Shown here: piece by piece, positions 1 through 7,923 of the stretch
Numbering within the stretch: the first letter of the stretch is position 1
Layout: the number at the start of each line of letters is the position of its first letter
IMG/VR virus record: IMGVR_UViG_2651869724_000001
Location: 1 to 7,923 of that record
Length of the DNA stretch: 7,923 nucleotides
Direction: 5' to 3' (one strand)
Source of the DNA: a virus
Taxonomy: Monodnaviria; Loebvirae; Hofneiviricota; Faserviricetes; Tubulavirales; Inoviridae
Program-made: the position numbers and the translations under genes
Notes under the pieces: generated by a model
Database searches by the model: none
Told to the model about the DNA's origin: nothing
What the model saw: the letters and a program-made list of their open reading frames with translations, nothing else

Positions 1-1062
<1,062 letters not shown>

Positions 1063-1375: not shown

Positions 1376-3025
<1,650 letters not shown>

Positions 3026-3029
3026 TTCA

Positions 3030-3200
3030 TCACCAGTAAAAACTAAATGGTTTTACAATTCGACGGAAATCCTGATCGGCTTTTTCAAGAATAACTGAAA
3101 CAACATATTCTTCAATGGTTGTATTTTTATTGTAAATAATTCTTTCTATCTGCTCGATAGTGTATTCTGGCAATTTAACTTTAAATTCTTGAGTAGACAT
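3030..3200 (-). CDS. 56-aa hypothetical protein, possible ribbon-helix-helix fold; absent from the ORF track (below its length cutoff)
   Basis: Minus-strand ATG at 3200-3198 is 5 nt after GAGGT. Translation: [56 protein letters not shown]. Its TGA at 3032-3030 lies 4 nt before the pIII ATG (TGATGAAATG). The strand-helix-helix spacing is my reading of the sequence, not a search result. Confidence 0.35.
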
Positions 3201-3292
3201 AAAACCTCACAAATTAGATTTAAAGCCAATGACGCAACATAACCCACAAAGGGAACCAAACATCATAAAAATAAAATCAAACATAAATATCC

Positions 3293-3316
3293 AAAAAAAG
3301 GGCGGAATATCCGCCC
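3293..3316 (-). terminator. Rho-independent terminator after the major coat gene
   Basis: Perfect 7-bp stem gggcgga (3300-3306) / tccgccc (3310-3316) with a 3-nt loop. On the minus-strand transcript it is followed by a 7-U tract (plus-strand A run 3293-3299). Sits 19 nt past the pVIII stop, as in Ff phages. Confidence 0.55.
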
Positions 3317-3334
3317 TTCCTCATAAAAAACAAC

Positions 3335-3583
3335 TCAGATACTTCTGATGGCTCCCCATACTTTACGAACGCCAGCAAAAGTCAGATAAACTGTAACTCC
3401 TGCAACACCGATAGAAAGAATAACAGCAGAAACAGAAGACATATCAATGCTGTTAGTCAATGATGAAAAATCGACTGTACCAGCAAAAGACGGAGATACA
3501 GCAAGAGCAGAAGCAGCGGAAAAAGATAAAGCTGCAACTTTCTTATCAACACCCTTAAAAAAATTGGTCATTTTTGCAAACAT
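3335..3583 (-). CDS. Major coat protein (pVIII-like) precursor, 82 aa
   Basis: AAGGAG lies 8 nt upstream of the ATG at 3583-3581. Signal-like N-terminus MFAKMTNFFKGVDKKVAALSFSAASALAVSPSFA, then a short mature part with a hydrophobic core and basic C-terminus (RKVWGAIRSI). The listed 102-aa ORF (to 3643) extends upstream with no RBS. Confidence 0.6.
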   Translation of the reverse strand: MFAKMTNFFKGVDKKVAALSFSAASALAVSPSFAGTVDFSSLTNSIDMSSVSAVILSIGVAGVTVYLTFAGVRKVWGAIRSI

Positions 3584-3585
3584 AA

Positions 3586-3759
3586 TTAAAGTCTCCTTAT
3601 TAAACTCCAAATTGTGGAAATAATCATGCCAAGAAAAAAACAAAATACTGGCAGTGAAAATCCCGTTAAAAACGCCGAGGAATAAATCCCCGACACATCA
3701 GGTATCCCCACGCAAATAGCATTAATTTGCGTGGAAACTGAATCCGAATTAACAGACAT
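3586..3759 (-). CDS. 57-aa small hydrophobic protein in the pVII/pIX slot (candidate minor coat protein)
   Basis: ATG at 3759-3757 follows 4 nt after the TAG of the upstream gene. Translation MSVNSDSVSTQINAICVGIPDVSGIYSSAFLTGFSLPVFCFFLGMIISTIWSLIRRL has a hydrophobic C-terminal half and basic end. Its TAA (3588-3586) lies inside the pVIII RBS region. Below the ORF-track cutoff. Confidence 0.35.
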   Translation of the reverse strand: MSVNSDSVSTQINAICVGIPDVSGIYSSAFLTGFSLPVFCFFLGMIISTIWSLIRRL

Positions 3760-3763
3760 AAAA

Positions 3764-5600
<1,837 letters not shown>

Positions 5601-5636: not shown

Positions 5637-5852
5637 TTGATGAAAAAAGAAACAAAGCGCGGAGACACAACCGTAAGGATTAACGAAAACAGAAAACTGG
5701 AGCTAAAACGAAGAGTGCTGGAAATCGGTAATAAAACAGGTGAGCTACTAAAACCATCAGAGATAGTAAACCACTTAATAGACAACTACTTAGATGATGC
5801 GGTGAAAGATCTAATAAGCAAAGAAGAACTTAAGAAAAAAAAGGCAATGTGA
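5637..5852 (+). CDS. Ribbon-helix-helix-like DNA-binding regulator (71 aa), candidate phage repressor
   Basis: Listed ORF with AGAGG 8-10 nt upstream. TTVRINENRKLELKRRVLEIG...KPSEIVNHLIDNYL reads as strand-helix-helix. Divergent from the phage operon, the position taken by repressors such as RstR in CTXphi-type phages. Confidence 0.45.
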   Translation: MMKKETKRGDTTVRINENRKLELKRRVLEIGNKTGELLKPSEIVNHLIDNYLDDAVKDLISKEELKKKKAM

Positions 5853-5908: not shown

Positions 5909-6142
<234 letters not shown>

Positions 6143-6193: not shown

Positions 6194-6334
6194 ATGCACG
6201 ACATGATTCTGGATTTACTAATGAAATACCTGATTGCCGGTAGTCTGTTCGGCATGTTTTTGTTCAGCGTCATAACAATAGTGTTGCCAATCGTCCTGAG
6301 GGCACACAATAAAATCAACAGAAGCAACGACTGA
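6194..6334 (+). CDS. 46-aa hypothetical small membrane protein
   Basis: ATG at 6194, TGA at 6332-6334. MHDMILDLLMKYLIAGSLFGMFLFSVITIVLPIVLRAHNKINRSND has one predicted transmembrane helix and a basic tail. No clear Shine-Dalgarno; below the ORF-track cutoff. Confidence 0.25.
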   Translation: MHDMILDLLMKYLIAGSLFGMFLFSVITIVLPIVLRAHNKINRSND

Positions 6335-6343
6335 ATACACAAC

Positions 6344-6371
6344 AGTGCGCACAATGGCGTTATGTATAAAA
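6344..6371. other. dif-like candidate XerC/XerD recombination site (possible prophage attachment junction)
   Basis: AGTGCGCACAA-TGGCGT-TATGTATAAAA compared with E. coli dif GGTGCGCATAA-TGTATA-TTATGTTAAAT. XerC-arm-like half matches 9/11. XerD-arm-like half matches 8/11 only if the central region is 5 bp, and 5/11 with canonical 11-6-11 spacing. Confidence 0.3.
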
Positions 6372-6410
6372 AGGCCGCTGCGGTGGAAAGTATCGCAGCG
6401 GCCTTTTCAA
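6366..6410. terminator. Bidirectional rho-independent terminator
   Basis: Perfect 12-bp stem aaggccgctgcg (6371-6382) / cgcagcggcctt (6394-6405) with 11-nt loop, flanked by an A run (6366-6372) and a T run (6404-6407). Confidence 0.5.
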
Positions 6411-6517
6411 CATAACGCGTGTCACATTATGTGCACCAATATTGTAACAGCAAAGTTGTAATGTCCGCCTTGGGCTAAGTTAAGATGTCCGGCGTGTATA
6501 ATCAAGTAAGGATTACC

Positions 6518-7048
6518 ATGACGGCTCTCGCAGCGGAGTTTTTCACTTTGGATGAAGTTAACCGACTCAAGATTATTCAGGACGTCATCGACCGGCGTCT
6601 GACAACACAGATGGCAGCGCAGCGGCTTGGTATCTCCGACCGCCAGTGCCGTCGTCTGCTTGCGCGTTATCGTGAAGATGGTCCGCTTGGCATGACCAGC
6701 CGCCGTCGTGGTAAATCCAGCAATAATCAGCTGCCTCAGGGACTGGCCGCATACGCGCTGAATATTATTCGCGAACGCTATAACGATTTCGGTCCGACTC
6801 TGGCCTGTGAAAAACTGGCTGAGGTTCACGGCGTTCATATTTCCAAAGAAACGGTTCGTAAGTTGATGACTCAGGCCAGTCTTTGGGTTCCACGTAAGCA
6901 ACGTGCACCAAAAATCCAGCAGCCGCGTTACCGACGTGCCTGTGCCGGTGAACTCATACAAATTGACGGCTGCGACCATCACTGGTTTGAAAACCGGGGA
7001 CCCAAGTGTAAGCACTGGTTTACGTTGATGACGCCACCAGTCGTCTGA
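6518..7048 (+). CDS. Transposase N-terminal segment (HTH DNA-binding region), ending at a frameshift
   Basis: ATG at 6518 (MTALAAEFF...) lies 5 nt after AAGGAT; the listed ORF starts at 6485. HTH-like TTQMAAQRLGISDRQCRRLLARYREDG. The frame ends ...IQIDGCDHHWFENRGPKCKHWFTLMTPPVV, while the -1 frame opens at 7012 and reads ALVYVDDATSRL. Confidence 0.55.
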   Translation: MTALAAEFFTLDEVNRLKIIQDVIDRRLTTQMAAQRLGISDRQCRRLLARYREDGPLGMTSRRRGKSSNNQLPQGLAAYALNIIRERYNDFGPTLACEKLAEVHGVHISKETVRKLMTQASLWVPRKQRAPKIQQPRYRRACAGELIQIDGCDHHWFENRGPKCKHWFTLMTPPVV

Positions 7049-7923
7049 TGCAGCTTCGTTTCGTAAAATCTGAATCGACTTTCACCTATTTTGAAGCGAC
7101 ACGGGGCTATATTGAAATGCATGGTAAGCCACTGGCGCTCTATAGCGACAAAGCCAGTGTCTTCAGGATCAACAATAAAAATGCCACTGGCGGCGAAGGC
7201 GAAACGCAGTTTGGACGTGCGATGCACGAACTGAACATTCAAACCATCTGTGCAGAAACCAGCGCAGCAAAAGGTCGTGTTGAGCGGGCGCATCTAACCC
7301 TTCAGGACAGACTGGTCAAGGAACTCAGGCTTCAGGGCATCAGCACAATGGAATCTGCTAACGCATTTGCCGAAGAGTTCATGAACGATTACAACCGACG
7401 TTTTTCAAAAGCGCCTCGCCAGGAGTTCGATGTTCATCGGGAACTGGATGTCGATGATGATCTTGATATGGTGTTTACTTGGCGTGAAGCCCGCCGCGTG
7501 TCGAAATCACTCACTGTGCAGTACGACAAAGTGCTTTACCTCATTGAAGACAATGAGTTCAGTCGTCGGGCGATTGGTAAATACATTGATGTCTGGCATT
7601 ACCCTGACGGACATAAAGAGCTCCGGCTTAATGGCGTATCACTTCCCTACTCCACCTATGACAAACTGTCTGAAATCGATCAGGGTGCCATTGTGGACAA
7701 TAAACGTCTTGGCCGTGCGCTGGAGATGGCGCAACTTGTGCAGGCCGAACGGGATAATAACCGGTCACAATCAGTGCCATCCGGTGACGGCCCTTCACGC
7801 AGGCGCAAAGCCCCTACGACGAAGAAATCCCAGCGTTCTTTGGACCAGGACGATATGTTCAATGCACTTGTAAAACTTCAGACACGAGCTGAGGAGATTT
7901 TTGGTGAACGCAACCAAAAATGA
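7048..7923 (+). CDS. Transposase catalytic-core segment (rve/DDE integrase fold); reading frame is open from 7012
   Basis: DDE-like motifs: LVYVDDATSRL (encoded 7015-7047, upstream of the listed ATG), LYSDKASVF, and AETSAAKGRVERAHLTLQ. The TGA falls at 7921-7923, the window end. Confidence 0.55.
   Translation: MQLRFVKSESTFTYFEATRGYIEMHGKPLALYSDKASVFRINNKNATGGEGETQFGRAMHELNIQTICAETSAAKGRVERAHLTLQDRLVKELRLQGISTMESANAFAEEFMNDYNRRFSKAPRQEFDVHRELDVDDDLDMVFTWREARRVSKSLTVQYDKVLYLIEDNEFSRRAIGKYIDVWHYPDGHKELRLNGVSLPYSTYDKLSEIDQGAIVDNKRLGRALEMAQLVQAERDNNRSQSVPSGDGPSRRRKAPTTKKSQRSLDQDDMFNALVKLQTRAEEIFGERNQK

What the first reader, a model, noticed from the sequence alone, without database searches (positions are those of the whole stretch)
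3030..3200. Unlisted 56-aa ORF inserted between the coat-gene terminator and pIII
Ff phages have no gene between the gene VIII terminator and gene III. Here a 56-aa ORF with a strong RBS sits in that position, and its stop is 4 nt from the pIII start. Its sequence alternates in a way that fits a small strand-helix-helix DNA-binding fold. It could be a second regulator or a pIII-associated factor.
Basis: inference. Interest (0 to 1): 0.55.

Follow-up and report, generated by a model that had tools for sequence, protein, structure and literature searches.

The report
Small ribbon-helix-helix gene before phage gIII
A 56-codon gene in front of the tip-protein gene (gIII) of an E. coli filamentous prophage is real, kept by selection and predicted to fold like small ribbon-helix-helix DNA-binding regulators, but what it controls is unknown and it looks like an ordinary lineage-specific accessory gene.

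Summary
Window 3030-3200 (minus strand) is a 56-aa ORF with a GTGAGG Shine-Dalgarno. Its TGA lies 4 nt before the ATG of the pIII-like gene, downstream of a strong terminator after the coat gene. RefSeq already annotates it as a hypothetical protein (WP_000107046.1).

It is a real gene. Homologues occur only in E. coli filamentous prophages, in two clades about 46% identical. They always sit in the same slot, whichever replication module the phage carries. dN/dS is 0.1-0.3, and rare disrupted alleles exist.

New points:
- An unannotated, very strongly constrained 25-aa hydrophobic gene (3207-3284) lies between the terminator and this ORF.
- More distant relatives keep that gene and lack the RHH gene.
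- orf25, the RHH gene and the pIII N-terminal domains form one anciently diverged cassette inside 90-98% identical flanks.
- The RHH protein is acidic and has a near-invariant C-terminal peptide, DxDFRxIVKPFSF.

The most likely role is a dimeric DNA-binding regulator co-expressed with pIII. Its target is unknown. It is a new member of a known kind, of modest interest.

The parts
3030..3200 (-). 56-aa gene for a predicted ribbon-helix-helix protein (the finding). Residues about 3-11 form the extended strand, 12-25 helix A and 29-49 helix B. The conserved tail D42-F54 is DxDFRxIVKPFSF.
   Evidence: ORF. RefSeq CDS WP_000107046.1. Homologues. dN/dS 0.1-0.3. AF2 pLDDT 81. RHH fold hits.
3205..3210 (-). 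GTGAGG Shine-Dalgarno of the 56-aa gene, 4 nt before the ATG. It contains the TGA stop of orf25.
   Evidence: Read directly from the sequence. GTGAG is conserved in clade B.
3207..3284 (-). orf25, an unannotated 25-aa hydrophobic gene (MFDFIFMMFGSLCGLCCVIGFKSNL). It is probably a small membrane or minor-virion protein and is the conserved upstream neighbour of gIII in this phage group.
   Evidence: dN/dS about 0.06 between clades; no non-synonymous change at pS 0.26-0.34 within clade B.
3291..3320 (-). Intrinsic terminator after the major-coat gene: 9-bp stem AAGGGCGGA/TCCGCCCTT, 3-nt loop, T7 tract.
   Evidence: inverted repeat I4; fold, z = -4.1; conserved in clade B.
3335..3583 (-). 82-aa major coat protein gene (pVIII-like).
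   Evidence: phrog_2186 virion structural protein, E = 2.9e-14; Pfam Phage_Coat_B weak.
3029..3034 (-). GGTGAT Shine-Dalgarno of the pIII-like gene. It overlaps the stop codon of the 56-aa gene, an arrangement that allows translational coupling.
   Evidence: Sequence. In clade B the stop lies 2-3 nt before, overlaps, or lies up to 14 nt inside the gIII start.
1376..3025 (-). 549-aa pIII-like gene with a signal peptide, N-terminal domains, an 18-nt (GSGTGT-type) repeat linker at 1747-1984 and a conserved C-terminal anchor. The N-terminal part (about 2000-3025) belongs to the same diverged cassette as orf25 and the RHH gene.
   Evidence: Synteny with DUF2523/pVI, Zot/pI and secretin/pIV. Identity profile. 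dS about 2 in pIII-N against 0.18-0.26 in pIII-C. Repeats.

Best explanation
The 56-aa ORF is a real, selectively maintained accessory gene of the morphogenesis module of a group of E. coli filamentous (inovirus-like) prophages that lie beside hipBA.

It encodes a small, acidic cytoplasmic protein with a ribbon-helix-helix fold. I infer that it forms an intertwined dimer, reads DNA through its N-terminal beta-ribbon (E5, K/R7, K/Q9) and the invariant N26-x-T28 cap of helix B, and uses its near-invariant C-terminal peptide (DxDFRxIVKPFSF) to contact a conserved partner.

It lies after the coat-gene terminator. Its expression is therefore expected to be low, on the same transcripts as orf25 and gIII, with ribosomes passing directly from its stop codon to the gIII start.

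The most likely job is a transcriptional regulator, probably a repressor, acting on a phage or host target that is not tied to the replication module. The target is not identified.

Shown: the gene is real, its position is fixed, it is under purifying selection, and the RHH fold is predicted. Inferred: dimerisation, DNA binding, regulatory role and coupling.
For: - Gene reality. The identical protein is on 700 contigs. A second clade at about 46% identity sits in the same slot. NG86 dN/dS is 0.10-0.30 within clade B at dS 0.2-0.35. Between clades pS is about 0.7 (saturated) against pN about 0.35. A GTG start replaces ATG in two loci with the frame kept.
- Module membership. The gene stays with coat-orf25-pIII-pVI-pI-pIV while the replication module changes: Rep_trans, G2P_X_C, Phage_GPA, and a differently annotated one in strain S21EC.
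- Tail. 11 of 13 residues are identical between clades, against 15 of 41 in the RHH part (hypergeometric P = 0.003). Synonymous sites in the tail differ at almost every codon, including AGT/TCT Ser, so the constraint is on the peptide, not the DNA.
Against: - No curated RHH family matches at sequence level. The best Pfam hits are HTH_40 (E 0.026) and RelB-like (E 0.15).
- All Foldseek E-values are above 0.05, and the alignment behind the model is shallow (Neff 1.5). The five AF2 models range from pLDDT 58 to 81.
- The protein is acidic (pI 5.3 and 4.85). The presumed repressor of the same phage has pI 9.6.
- No promoter-like site and no conserved inverted or direct repeat that could serve as an operator was found between the terminator and the gene.
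- Closely related phages do without the gene, so it is not essential for morphogenesis.
- There are no expression data.
Confidence: 0.5

Rival explanations
1. Antitoxin-like adaptor. The RHH domain serves mainly as a dimer scaffold, and the function lies in the conserved C-terminal peptide. That peptide would bind and restrain or deliver a protein partner: a conserved phage assembly protein such as the pI/Zot ATPase, pIII before export, or a host factor. Any DNA binding would be secondary.
For: - The best structural matches are type II antitoxins: TacA1/2/3, KacA, MazE6, ParD, RelB, AtaR.
- The protein is acidic like antitoxins.
- The tail is the most conserved part of the protein and is constrained at the protein level.
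- The gene precedes its neighbour with the stop/start overlap typical of antitoxin-toxin pairs.
Against: - No toxin-like gene is adjacent; the downstream gene is an exported virion protein.
- The tail is only 8-15 residues, whereas the toxin-binding region of TacA/KacA/AtaR is, from my own knowledge, a much longer C-terminal segment (about 40 residues).
- There is no PADLOC or Pfam antitoxin family hit.
- pIII-N diverges between clades while the tail does not, so the N-terminal domains of pIII are an unlikely tail partner.
Confidence: 0.22
2. Host-directed lysogenic-conversion regulator (a moron). The RHH protein represses or activates host genes, for example the receptor used by its own pIII type, which would give type-specific superinfection exclusion.
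For: - The gene is a lineage-specific insertion, absent from close relatives.
- It lies in one anciently diverged cassette with the pIII N-terminal (receptor-binding) domains.
- The presumed DNA-reading residues differ between clades (K7/K9 against R/K7 and Q9).
- It is independent of the replication/regulation module.
Against: Co-divergence can be simple linkage to a recombination block. No target site is known. The receptor of these phages is unknown. There are no expression data from lysogens.
Confidence: 0.15
3. Mere translational leader. The ORF exists to bring ribosomes to the gIII start, and its peptide has no function of its own.
For: The stop lies within a few nt of, or overlaps, the gIII start in every variant, and the gIII Shine-Dalgarno is inside the ORF.
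Against: - dN/dS is 0.1-0.3 and the peptide motif stays invariant over saturated synonymous sites.
- The predicted fold is confident.
- Relatives express gIII directly after orf25 without it.
- No RNA structure sequesters the gIII start.
Confidence: 0.05
4. Chance ORF, not a gene.
For: An ORF of this length arises in 4.6% of shuffles of the interval. There is no family hit.
Against: Frame and position are conserved at 46% identity, the gene is under purifying selection, and the fold is predicted.
Confidence: 0.01

Closest known systems
Arc/Mnt (phage P22) and CopG (pMV158) ribbon-helix-helix repressors
   Same: - Size of 45-56 aa.
- Strand-helix-helix order, with alternating hydrophobic residues in the strand followed by Pro.
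- A polar-x-Ser/Thr cap at helix B (here N26-x-T28).
- In-register weak profile matches and structural matches.
- From my own knowledge of pMV158, copG is likewise the first, tightly linked gene ahead of the gene it controls (repB).
   Different: - No significant sequence similarity.
- The protein is acidic rather than basic.
- Helix B is longer and there is an extra conserved C-terminal peptide.
- No promoter or operator is recognisable upstream.
- It lies in a virion-morphogenesis module, not a regulatory or replication module.
RHH type II antitoxins (TacA/KacA/AtaR DUF1778 family; ParD, RelB, MazE6)
   Same: - Acidic.
- N-terminal RHH followed by a conserved C-terminal segment.
- Upstream gene of a translationally coupled pair.
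   Different: - No toxin partner gene.
- The tail is far too short for the known toxin-binding regions.
- No DUF1778, RelB or ParD family hit reaches threshold, and there is no PADLOC hit.
Ff (M13/fd/f1) gene order and other dif-integrating enterobacterial inoviruses (YpfPhi, CUS-1)
   Same: - Same module order: replication, ssDNA-binding, small hydrophobic protein, coat, terminator, gIII, gVI, gI, gIV.
- Prophage copies in tandem beside hipBA. From my own knowledge the E. coli dif site lies in that region, as for the dif-integrating YpfPhi and CUS-1 (PMC4266046), but no dif match was found in the window.
   Different: - Ff has nothing between the gVIII terminator and gIII (established gene map).
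- This lineage has orf25 there, and one sub-lineage additionally has the RHH gene.
- There is no DNA or protein match of the coat, pIII or the 56-aa protein to any of 50,697 deposited phage records.

Membership tests
Ribbon-helix-helix (Arc/MetJ/CopG) superfamily | N-terminal beta-strand with alternating hydrophobic residues, followed by two alpha-helices in a domain of about 45 residues | tested here: met
   The AF2 model (pLDDT 81) has an extended 1-11 and helices at 12-25 and 29-49. F/I6, V/L8 and L/I10 alternate, and P11 is nearly invariant. This is a prediction, not a solved structure.
Ribbon-helix-helix (Arc/MetJ/CopG) superfamily | Structural similarity to solved RHH proteins above background | tested here: met
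   [not shown]
Ribbon-helix-helix (Arc/MetJ/CopG) superfamily | Significant sequence match to a curated RHH family model | tested here: not met
   Pfam, NCBIfam and PHROGs give nothing below E = 0.01; RelB-like reaches E = 0.15 in 4 of 21 members. In PDB sequences, Arc has E = 0.72 and KacA E = 0.91. hhalign to Arc gives P = 0.007 but probability 5%.
Ribbon-helix-helix (Arc/MetJ/CopG) superfamily | Gly-x-Ser/Thr-type turn at the N-terminus of helix B that anchors the DNA backbone | tested here: inconclusive
   N26 and T28 are invariant in all 21 sequences and align with G30-R-S32 of Arc. Asn replaces Gly, and no contact with DNA was tested.
Ribbon-helix-helix (Arc/MetJ/CopG) superfamily | Intertwined homodimer and sequence-specific DNA binding through the two-stranded sheet | not testable with these tools
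   Only monomer prediction was available. No operator candidate was found.
Type II antitoxin of the TacA/KacA/AtaR (DUF1778) kind | Cognate toxin gene (GNAT acetyltransferase) immediately downstream | tested here: not met
   The downstream gene is the 549-aa pIII-like virion protein in every locus.
Type II antitoxin of the TacA/KacA/AtaR (DUF1778) kind | Long C-terminal toxin-neutralising region and a DUF1778 family match | tested here: not met
   Only 8-15 residues follow helix B. There is no DUF1778 hit and no PADLOC hit.
CopG-type operon-first autorepressor | Own promoter with a repeat operator directly upstream of the RHH gene | tested here: not met
   There is no promoter-like site on the phage strand between the terminator and the gene. 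Only non-conserved AT-rich repeats are present. The interval is filled by orf25.
Core inovirus virion/assembly genes (pVII/pIX-like small proteins) | Hydrophobic membrane-spanning segment and presence across related phages | tested here: not met
   The protein is hydrophilic (GRAVY -0.38) and acidic, with no hydrophobic stretch. It is absent from L010, L023, L033 and L034, which keep the other genes. orf25, not this ORF, fits that description.

The most novel reading that the evidence does not exclude
The RHH protein is a type-specific factor that co-evolves with the receptor-binding half of pIII. Its variable beta-ribbon would recognise a cassette-specific DNA target. Its invariant C-terminal peptide would dock on a conserved machine, for example the pI/Zot assembly ATPase or a host protein. 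That would make it either a DNA-to-assembly adaptor, comparable with ParG/omega-type centromere binders working with Walker ATPases, or a regulator giving pIII-type-specific superinfection exclusion. Neither role is described for filamentous phages.
Probability: 0.1. Interest if true: 0.65.

Novelty: new member of a known kind. Interest (0 to 1): 0.35.

Why it matters
If the protein binds DNA, this would be a regulator placed inside the morphogenesis module of a filamentous phage and coupled to the tip protein. That is not part of the textbook Ff or CTXphi layout, and it could explain how temperate E. coli inoviruses dose pIII or exclude rivals. These prophages sit in human E. coli isolates, including serotype O166:H15 strains, so any host-directed regulation would bear on lysogenic conversion. 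The practical gain today is smaller. It gives a fold-level annotation for a 'hypothetical protein' seen on about 700 contigs. It recognises a missed 25-aa core gene. It also maps a swappable orf25-RHH-pIII(N) cassette.

Tried and rejected
- Family searches with Pfam, PHROGs, NCBIfam and PADLOC gave nothing significant.
- tblastn and blastn of the ORF, coat and pIII against deposited phages found no match.
- Two genome-contig scans (RHH alignment, pVI alignment) returned no confirmed locus.
- A full HMMER scan of 1.84 billion representatives found only the two E. coli clades, plus one dubious match to a 1840-aa protein at E = 7e-4, which I did not pursue.
- The single-sequence AF2 model was poor (pLDDT 60) and was replaced by the alignment-based model.
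- The promoter scan and repeat search for an operator found nothing conserved.
- RNA folding of the RHH/gIII junction, looking for a structure that would enforce coupling, gave folds no better than shuffles.
- Similarity to the phage's own 71-aa putative repressor: none.
- Context of the weak pIII hit P0039 turned out to be a contractile-injection-system locus matched through repeats, and is irrelevant.
- A dif site search in the window found no match.
- Literature: no paper mentions WP_000107046. The RHH proteins reported in inoviruses lie in other modules.
- I considered orf25 plus RHH as a toxin-antitoxin pair and rejected it, because orf25 is conserved without the RHH gene in relatives.

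Full report
**What the window is**

The minus strand carries a filamentous (inovirus-like) prophage. In phage order the genes are:
- a 65-aa ORF (5305-5502, phrog_3104)
- a Rep_trans initiator (4109-5335)
- a 111-aa protein (3764-4099, phrog_14411), a candidate ssDNA-binding protein by position only
- a 57-aa hydrophobic ORF (3586-3759)
- an 82-aa major coat protein (3335-3583; phrog_2186 E = 2.9e-14)
- a terminator
- the region in question
- a 549-aa pIII-like protein (1376-3025)
- a DUF2523/pVI-like protein (1071-1358)
- Zot/pI (1-1059)

A basic 71-aa protein is transcribed divergently (5637-5852). An ISNCY element occupies 6485-7923.

The same prophage occurs at 98.5-99.9% identity in 15 complete E. 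coli genomes, for example O166:H15 strains from humans. There it continues into a secretin/pIV gene and often sits in tandem copies.

**The observation**

- The ATG is at 3200, there are 56 codons, and the TGA is at 3032-3030, followed by a second in-frame TGA.
- Four bases separate the stop from the pIII ATG at 3025.
- GTGAGG lies 4 nt upstream of the start.
- The GGTGAT Shine-Dalgarno of pIII lies inside the ORF's end.
- The terminator after the coat gene has a perfect 9-bp stem, a 3-nt loop and a T7 tract. It folds at -22 kcal/mol with z = -4.1.

An ORF this long appears in 4.6% of shuffles of the 309-nt interval, so length alone proves little.

PGAP already annotates the ORF as hypothetical protein WP_000107046.1. 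No paper in the library mentions that accession.

**Is it a gene?**

Word-indexed and exhaustive HMMER searches find relatives only in E. coli. The identical or near-identical 56-aa protein is on about 700 contigs. A second clade of 58-64 aa is about 46% identical.

In every locus fetched, the homologue lies between the 83-aa coat gene and the pIII homologue. Its stop lies 2-3 nt before the gIII start, overlaps it (GTGA), or lies up to 14 nt inside it. In clade B a poly-G tract of variable length, which doubles as the gIII Shine-Dalgarno, changes the last few residues. The conserved protein therefore ends at ...KPFSF(D/Y)(F/W).

Nei-Gojobori estimates give dN/dS of 0.10-0.30 within clade B at dS 0.2-0.35. 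Between clades, synonymous sites are saturated (pS about 0.7) against pN about 0.35. Two loci use GTG instead of ATG and keep the frame. Two disrupted alleles exist, each on a single contig (P0003 and P0004), as expected in decaying prophages. The protein is real and under purifying selection.

**Where it belongs**

The gene travels with the structural module. The same coat-...-pIII-pVI-pI-pIV block, RHH gene included, is joined to several replication modules:
- Rep_trans (the window)
- G2P_X_C with a Phage_DNA_bind protein (L017, L018)
- Phage_GPA (L011, L020, L022)
- a differently annotated replication protein in strain S21EC

A target, if the protein has one, should therefore lie in the structural module or in the host, not in the replication/immunity module.

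More distant relatives have no such gene:
- L010, in an E. coli host, with pIII 46% identical
- L033 and L034, with pVI 60-63% identical
- a Salmonella prophage, L023

L010, L033 and L034 do keep a 27-29-aa hydrophobic ORF directly before gIII (for example MSQSIFDVVIFIFGALCGFSAVLGFMFSR). Its counterpart in the window is an unannotated 25-aa ORF at 3207-3284 (MFDFIFMMFGSLCGLCCVIGFKSNL), whose TGA overlaps the Shine-Dalgarno of the 56-aa gene.

That small ORF is extremely constrained. It shows no non-synonymous change at pS 0.26-0.34 within clade B, and dN/dS of about 0.06 between clades. So the 56-aa gene is a lineage-specific insertion between a conserved small core gene and gIII.

**A diverged cassette**

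Sliding identity between the window phage and clade-B phages is as follows:

| Region | DNA identity |
|---|---|
| 57-aa ORF, coat gene, terminator | 90-100% |
| pIII C-terminus, pVI, pI | 90-100% |
| Window about 3260 to about 2000 | 45-77% |

Codon analysis sharpens this:

| Region | Synonymous divergence | Non-synonymous divergence (dN) |
|---|---|---|
| Flanks | dS 0.08-0.26 | not compared here |
| orf25 | saturated | about 0.15 |
| RHH gene | saturated | about 0.48 |
| pIII N-terminal domains | dS about 2 | about 0.29 |

All three cassette genes have dN/dS of 0.23 or less. They therefore form one anciently diverged, exchangeable cassette, and the RHH protein is its fastest-evolving member. 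This may reflect co-adaptation with the receptor-binding half of pIII, or only linkage.

**Fold**

The single-sequence AF2 model was poor (pLDDT 60). With the 21-sequence alignment the best model reaches pLDDT 81 (the five models range from 58 to 81). It has an extended N-terminus (1-11) and helices at 12-25 and 29-49.

- Foldseek against PDB: almost only RHH proteins, including StnY, KacA, Arc, TacA1, AmrZ, CopG, PutA, ORF56, AtaR and NikA. TM is 0.65-0.75, but E-values are 0.1-1.
- BFVD: Arc/CopG/repressor-type phage proteins, none identifiable as from an inovirus.

Independently, the family profile finds Arc (E 0.72) and KacA (E 0.91) among the top five PDB sequences. Both align in register over the strand and both helices. 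hhalign gives P = 0.007 to Arc and 0.025 to CopG.

The sequence shows the RHH hallmarks. Hydrophobic residues alternate in the strand (F/I6, V/L8, L/I10). P11 aligns with Arc P15. An invariant N26-x-T28 sits where Arc has G-R-S.

No curated family reaches significance. I put the RHH fold at about 0.8.

**Features that bear on function**

- The protein is acidic, with pI 5.3 and 4.85, against 9.6 for the divergently transcribed 71-aa protein.
- The C-terminal 13 residues (DxDFRxIVKPFSF) are 11/13 identical between clades, against 15/41 in the RHH part (P = 0.003). The codons differ at nearly every synonymous site. This is a peptide-level constraint that points to a conserved partner.
- The presumed DNA-facing strand residues are E5 (invariant), K or R at position 7, and K or Q at position 9.
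- No promoter-like site or conserved repeat lies between the terminator and the gene.
- No RNA structure occludes the gIII start.

Expression should therefore come from terminator read-through or upstream promoters, at the low level expected for gIII, and ribosomes can pass from the ORF to gIII.

**Explanation and rivals**

The best-supported reading is a small dimeric RHH protein, an accessory regulator made together with pIII. It would bind DNA through the ribbon and use its tail to contact a conserved partner. The target is unknown. My estimates are: gene 0.95 or higher, fold about 0.8, DNA-binding regulator about 0.5.

The rivals are:
- An antitoxin-like adaptor, in which the tail-partner interaction is the real function (0.22). 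The antitoxin-rich hit list, the acidity and the tail favour it. No toxin gene is present and the tail is short.
- A host-directed moron or type-specific exclusion factor (0.15). This overlaps the main model in mechanism but not in target.
- A mere coupling leader (0.05), contradicted by the selection on the peptide.
- A chance ORF (0.01).

**Comparison with known systems and novelty**

Functionally it most resembles Arc/CopG-type repressors and RHH antitoxins. It cannot be filed in any curated family, it lacks the toxin partner of antitoxins, and it lacks a recognisable operator.

Ff has no gene in this position. RHH proteins reported in inoviruses lie outside the structural genes, for example the omega-like ORF13 of PMBT54 (PMC10534721). 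YpfPhi and CUS-1 are described without such a gene (PMC4266046).

It is a new, sequence-orphan member of a very common fold class in an unusual genomic slot: a new member of a known kind. Interest is modest (0.35). It would rise if the cassette co-variation or the conserved tail proved to reflect a link to pIII type or to the assembly machine.

Noticed in passing
window 3207-3284 (-); L008 662-739; L010 about 7855-7943; L033 3355-3444; L034 2606-2689: An unannotated 25-29-aa hydrophobic ORF lies directly after the coat-gene terminator. It is conserved across all relatives examined, including those without the 56-aa gene. Within clade B it has no non-synonymous change at pS 0.26-0.34, and dN/dS between clades is about 0.06. 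It is probably a missed core gene: a small membrane or minor-virion protein, or a PfsE-like factor.
   Followed up: partly
window 956 (codon 35 of the Zot/pI gene, 1-1059, minus strand): A single T (G in strain JNE21-003) creates a TAA stop in the pI/Zot assembly ATPase gene. This copy of the prophage is therefore probably unable to assemble virions.
   Followed up: yes
window about 2000-3284 compared with L008, L011, L014 and L017: orf25, the RHH gene and the pIII N-terminal domains form an anciently diverged cassette (synonymous sites saturated) inside flanks with dS 0.08-0.26. The right-hand boundary falls in the Gly/Ser/Thr repeat linker of pIII.
   Followed up: yes
window 1747-1984: An 18-nt tandem repeat, 13.2 copies at 96% match, encodes the (GSGTGT)n linker of the pIII-like protein. 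Copy number varies among loci, giving pIII lengths of 501-569 aa.
   Followed up: partly
L008 about 905-925 and the equivalent positions in L011, L014, L017 and L020: A poly-G tract of variable length (3-7 G) at the RHH/gIII junction of clade B serves as the gIII Shine-Dalgarno. It shifts the RHH stop codon, giving 58-64-aa variants with different tails.
   Followed up: partly
L001, L002, L011-L013, L017, L018, L020-L022: The same structural module is joined to at least three unrelated replication modules: Rep_trans, G2P_X_C and Phage_GPA. The prophages lie next to hipBA and often occur in tandem copies, as expected for Xer/dif-integrating inoviruses.
   Followed up: partly
window 6485-7048 and 7048-7923 (+): An ISNCY-family transposase is split into two reading frames (model positions 1-148 and 161-367). 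This is a frameshifted or two-ORF IS abutting the prophage's regulatory end.
   Followed up: no
window 5637-5852 (+): A divergently transcribed 71-aa basic protein (pI 9.6, phrog_2503) has a strand-helix-helix-like pattern by eye. It is the likely primary repressor of this replication module. hhalign shows no similarity to the 56-aa protein.
   Followed up: partly
window about 5990-6110 and 6194-6400: A GC-rich stretch unlike the AT-rich phage is followed by a 46-aa hydrophobic ORF (6194-6334) and, by eye, a GC-rich inverted repeat with a T run at about 6372-6400 (terminator-like), between the prophage and the IS. Its origin was not examined.
   Followed up: no
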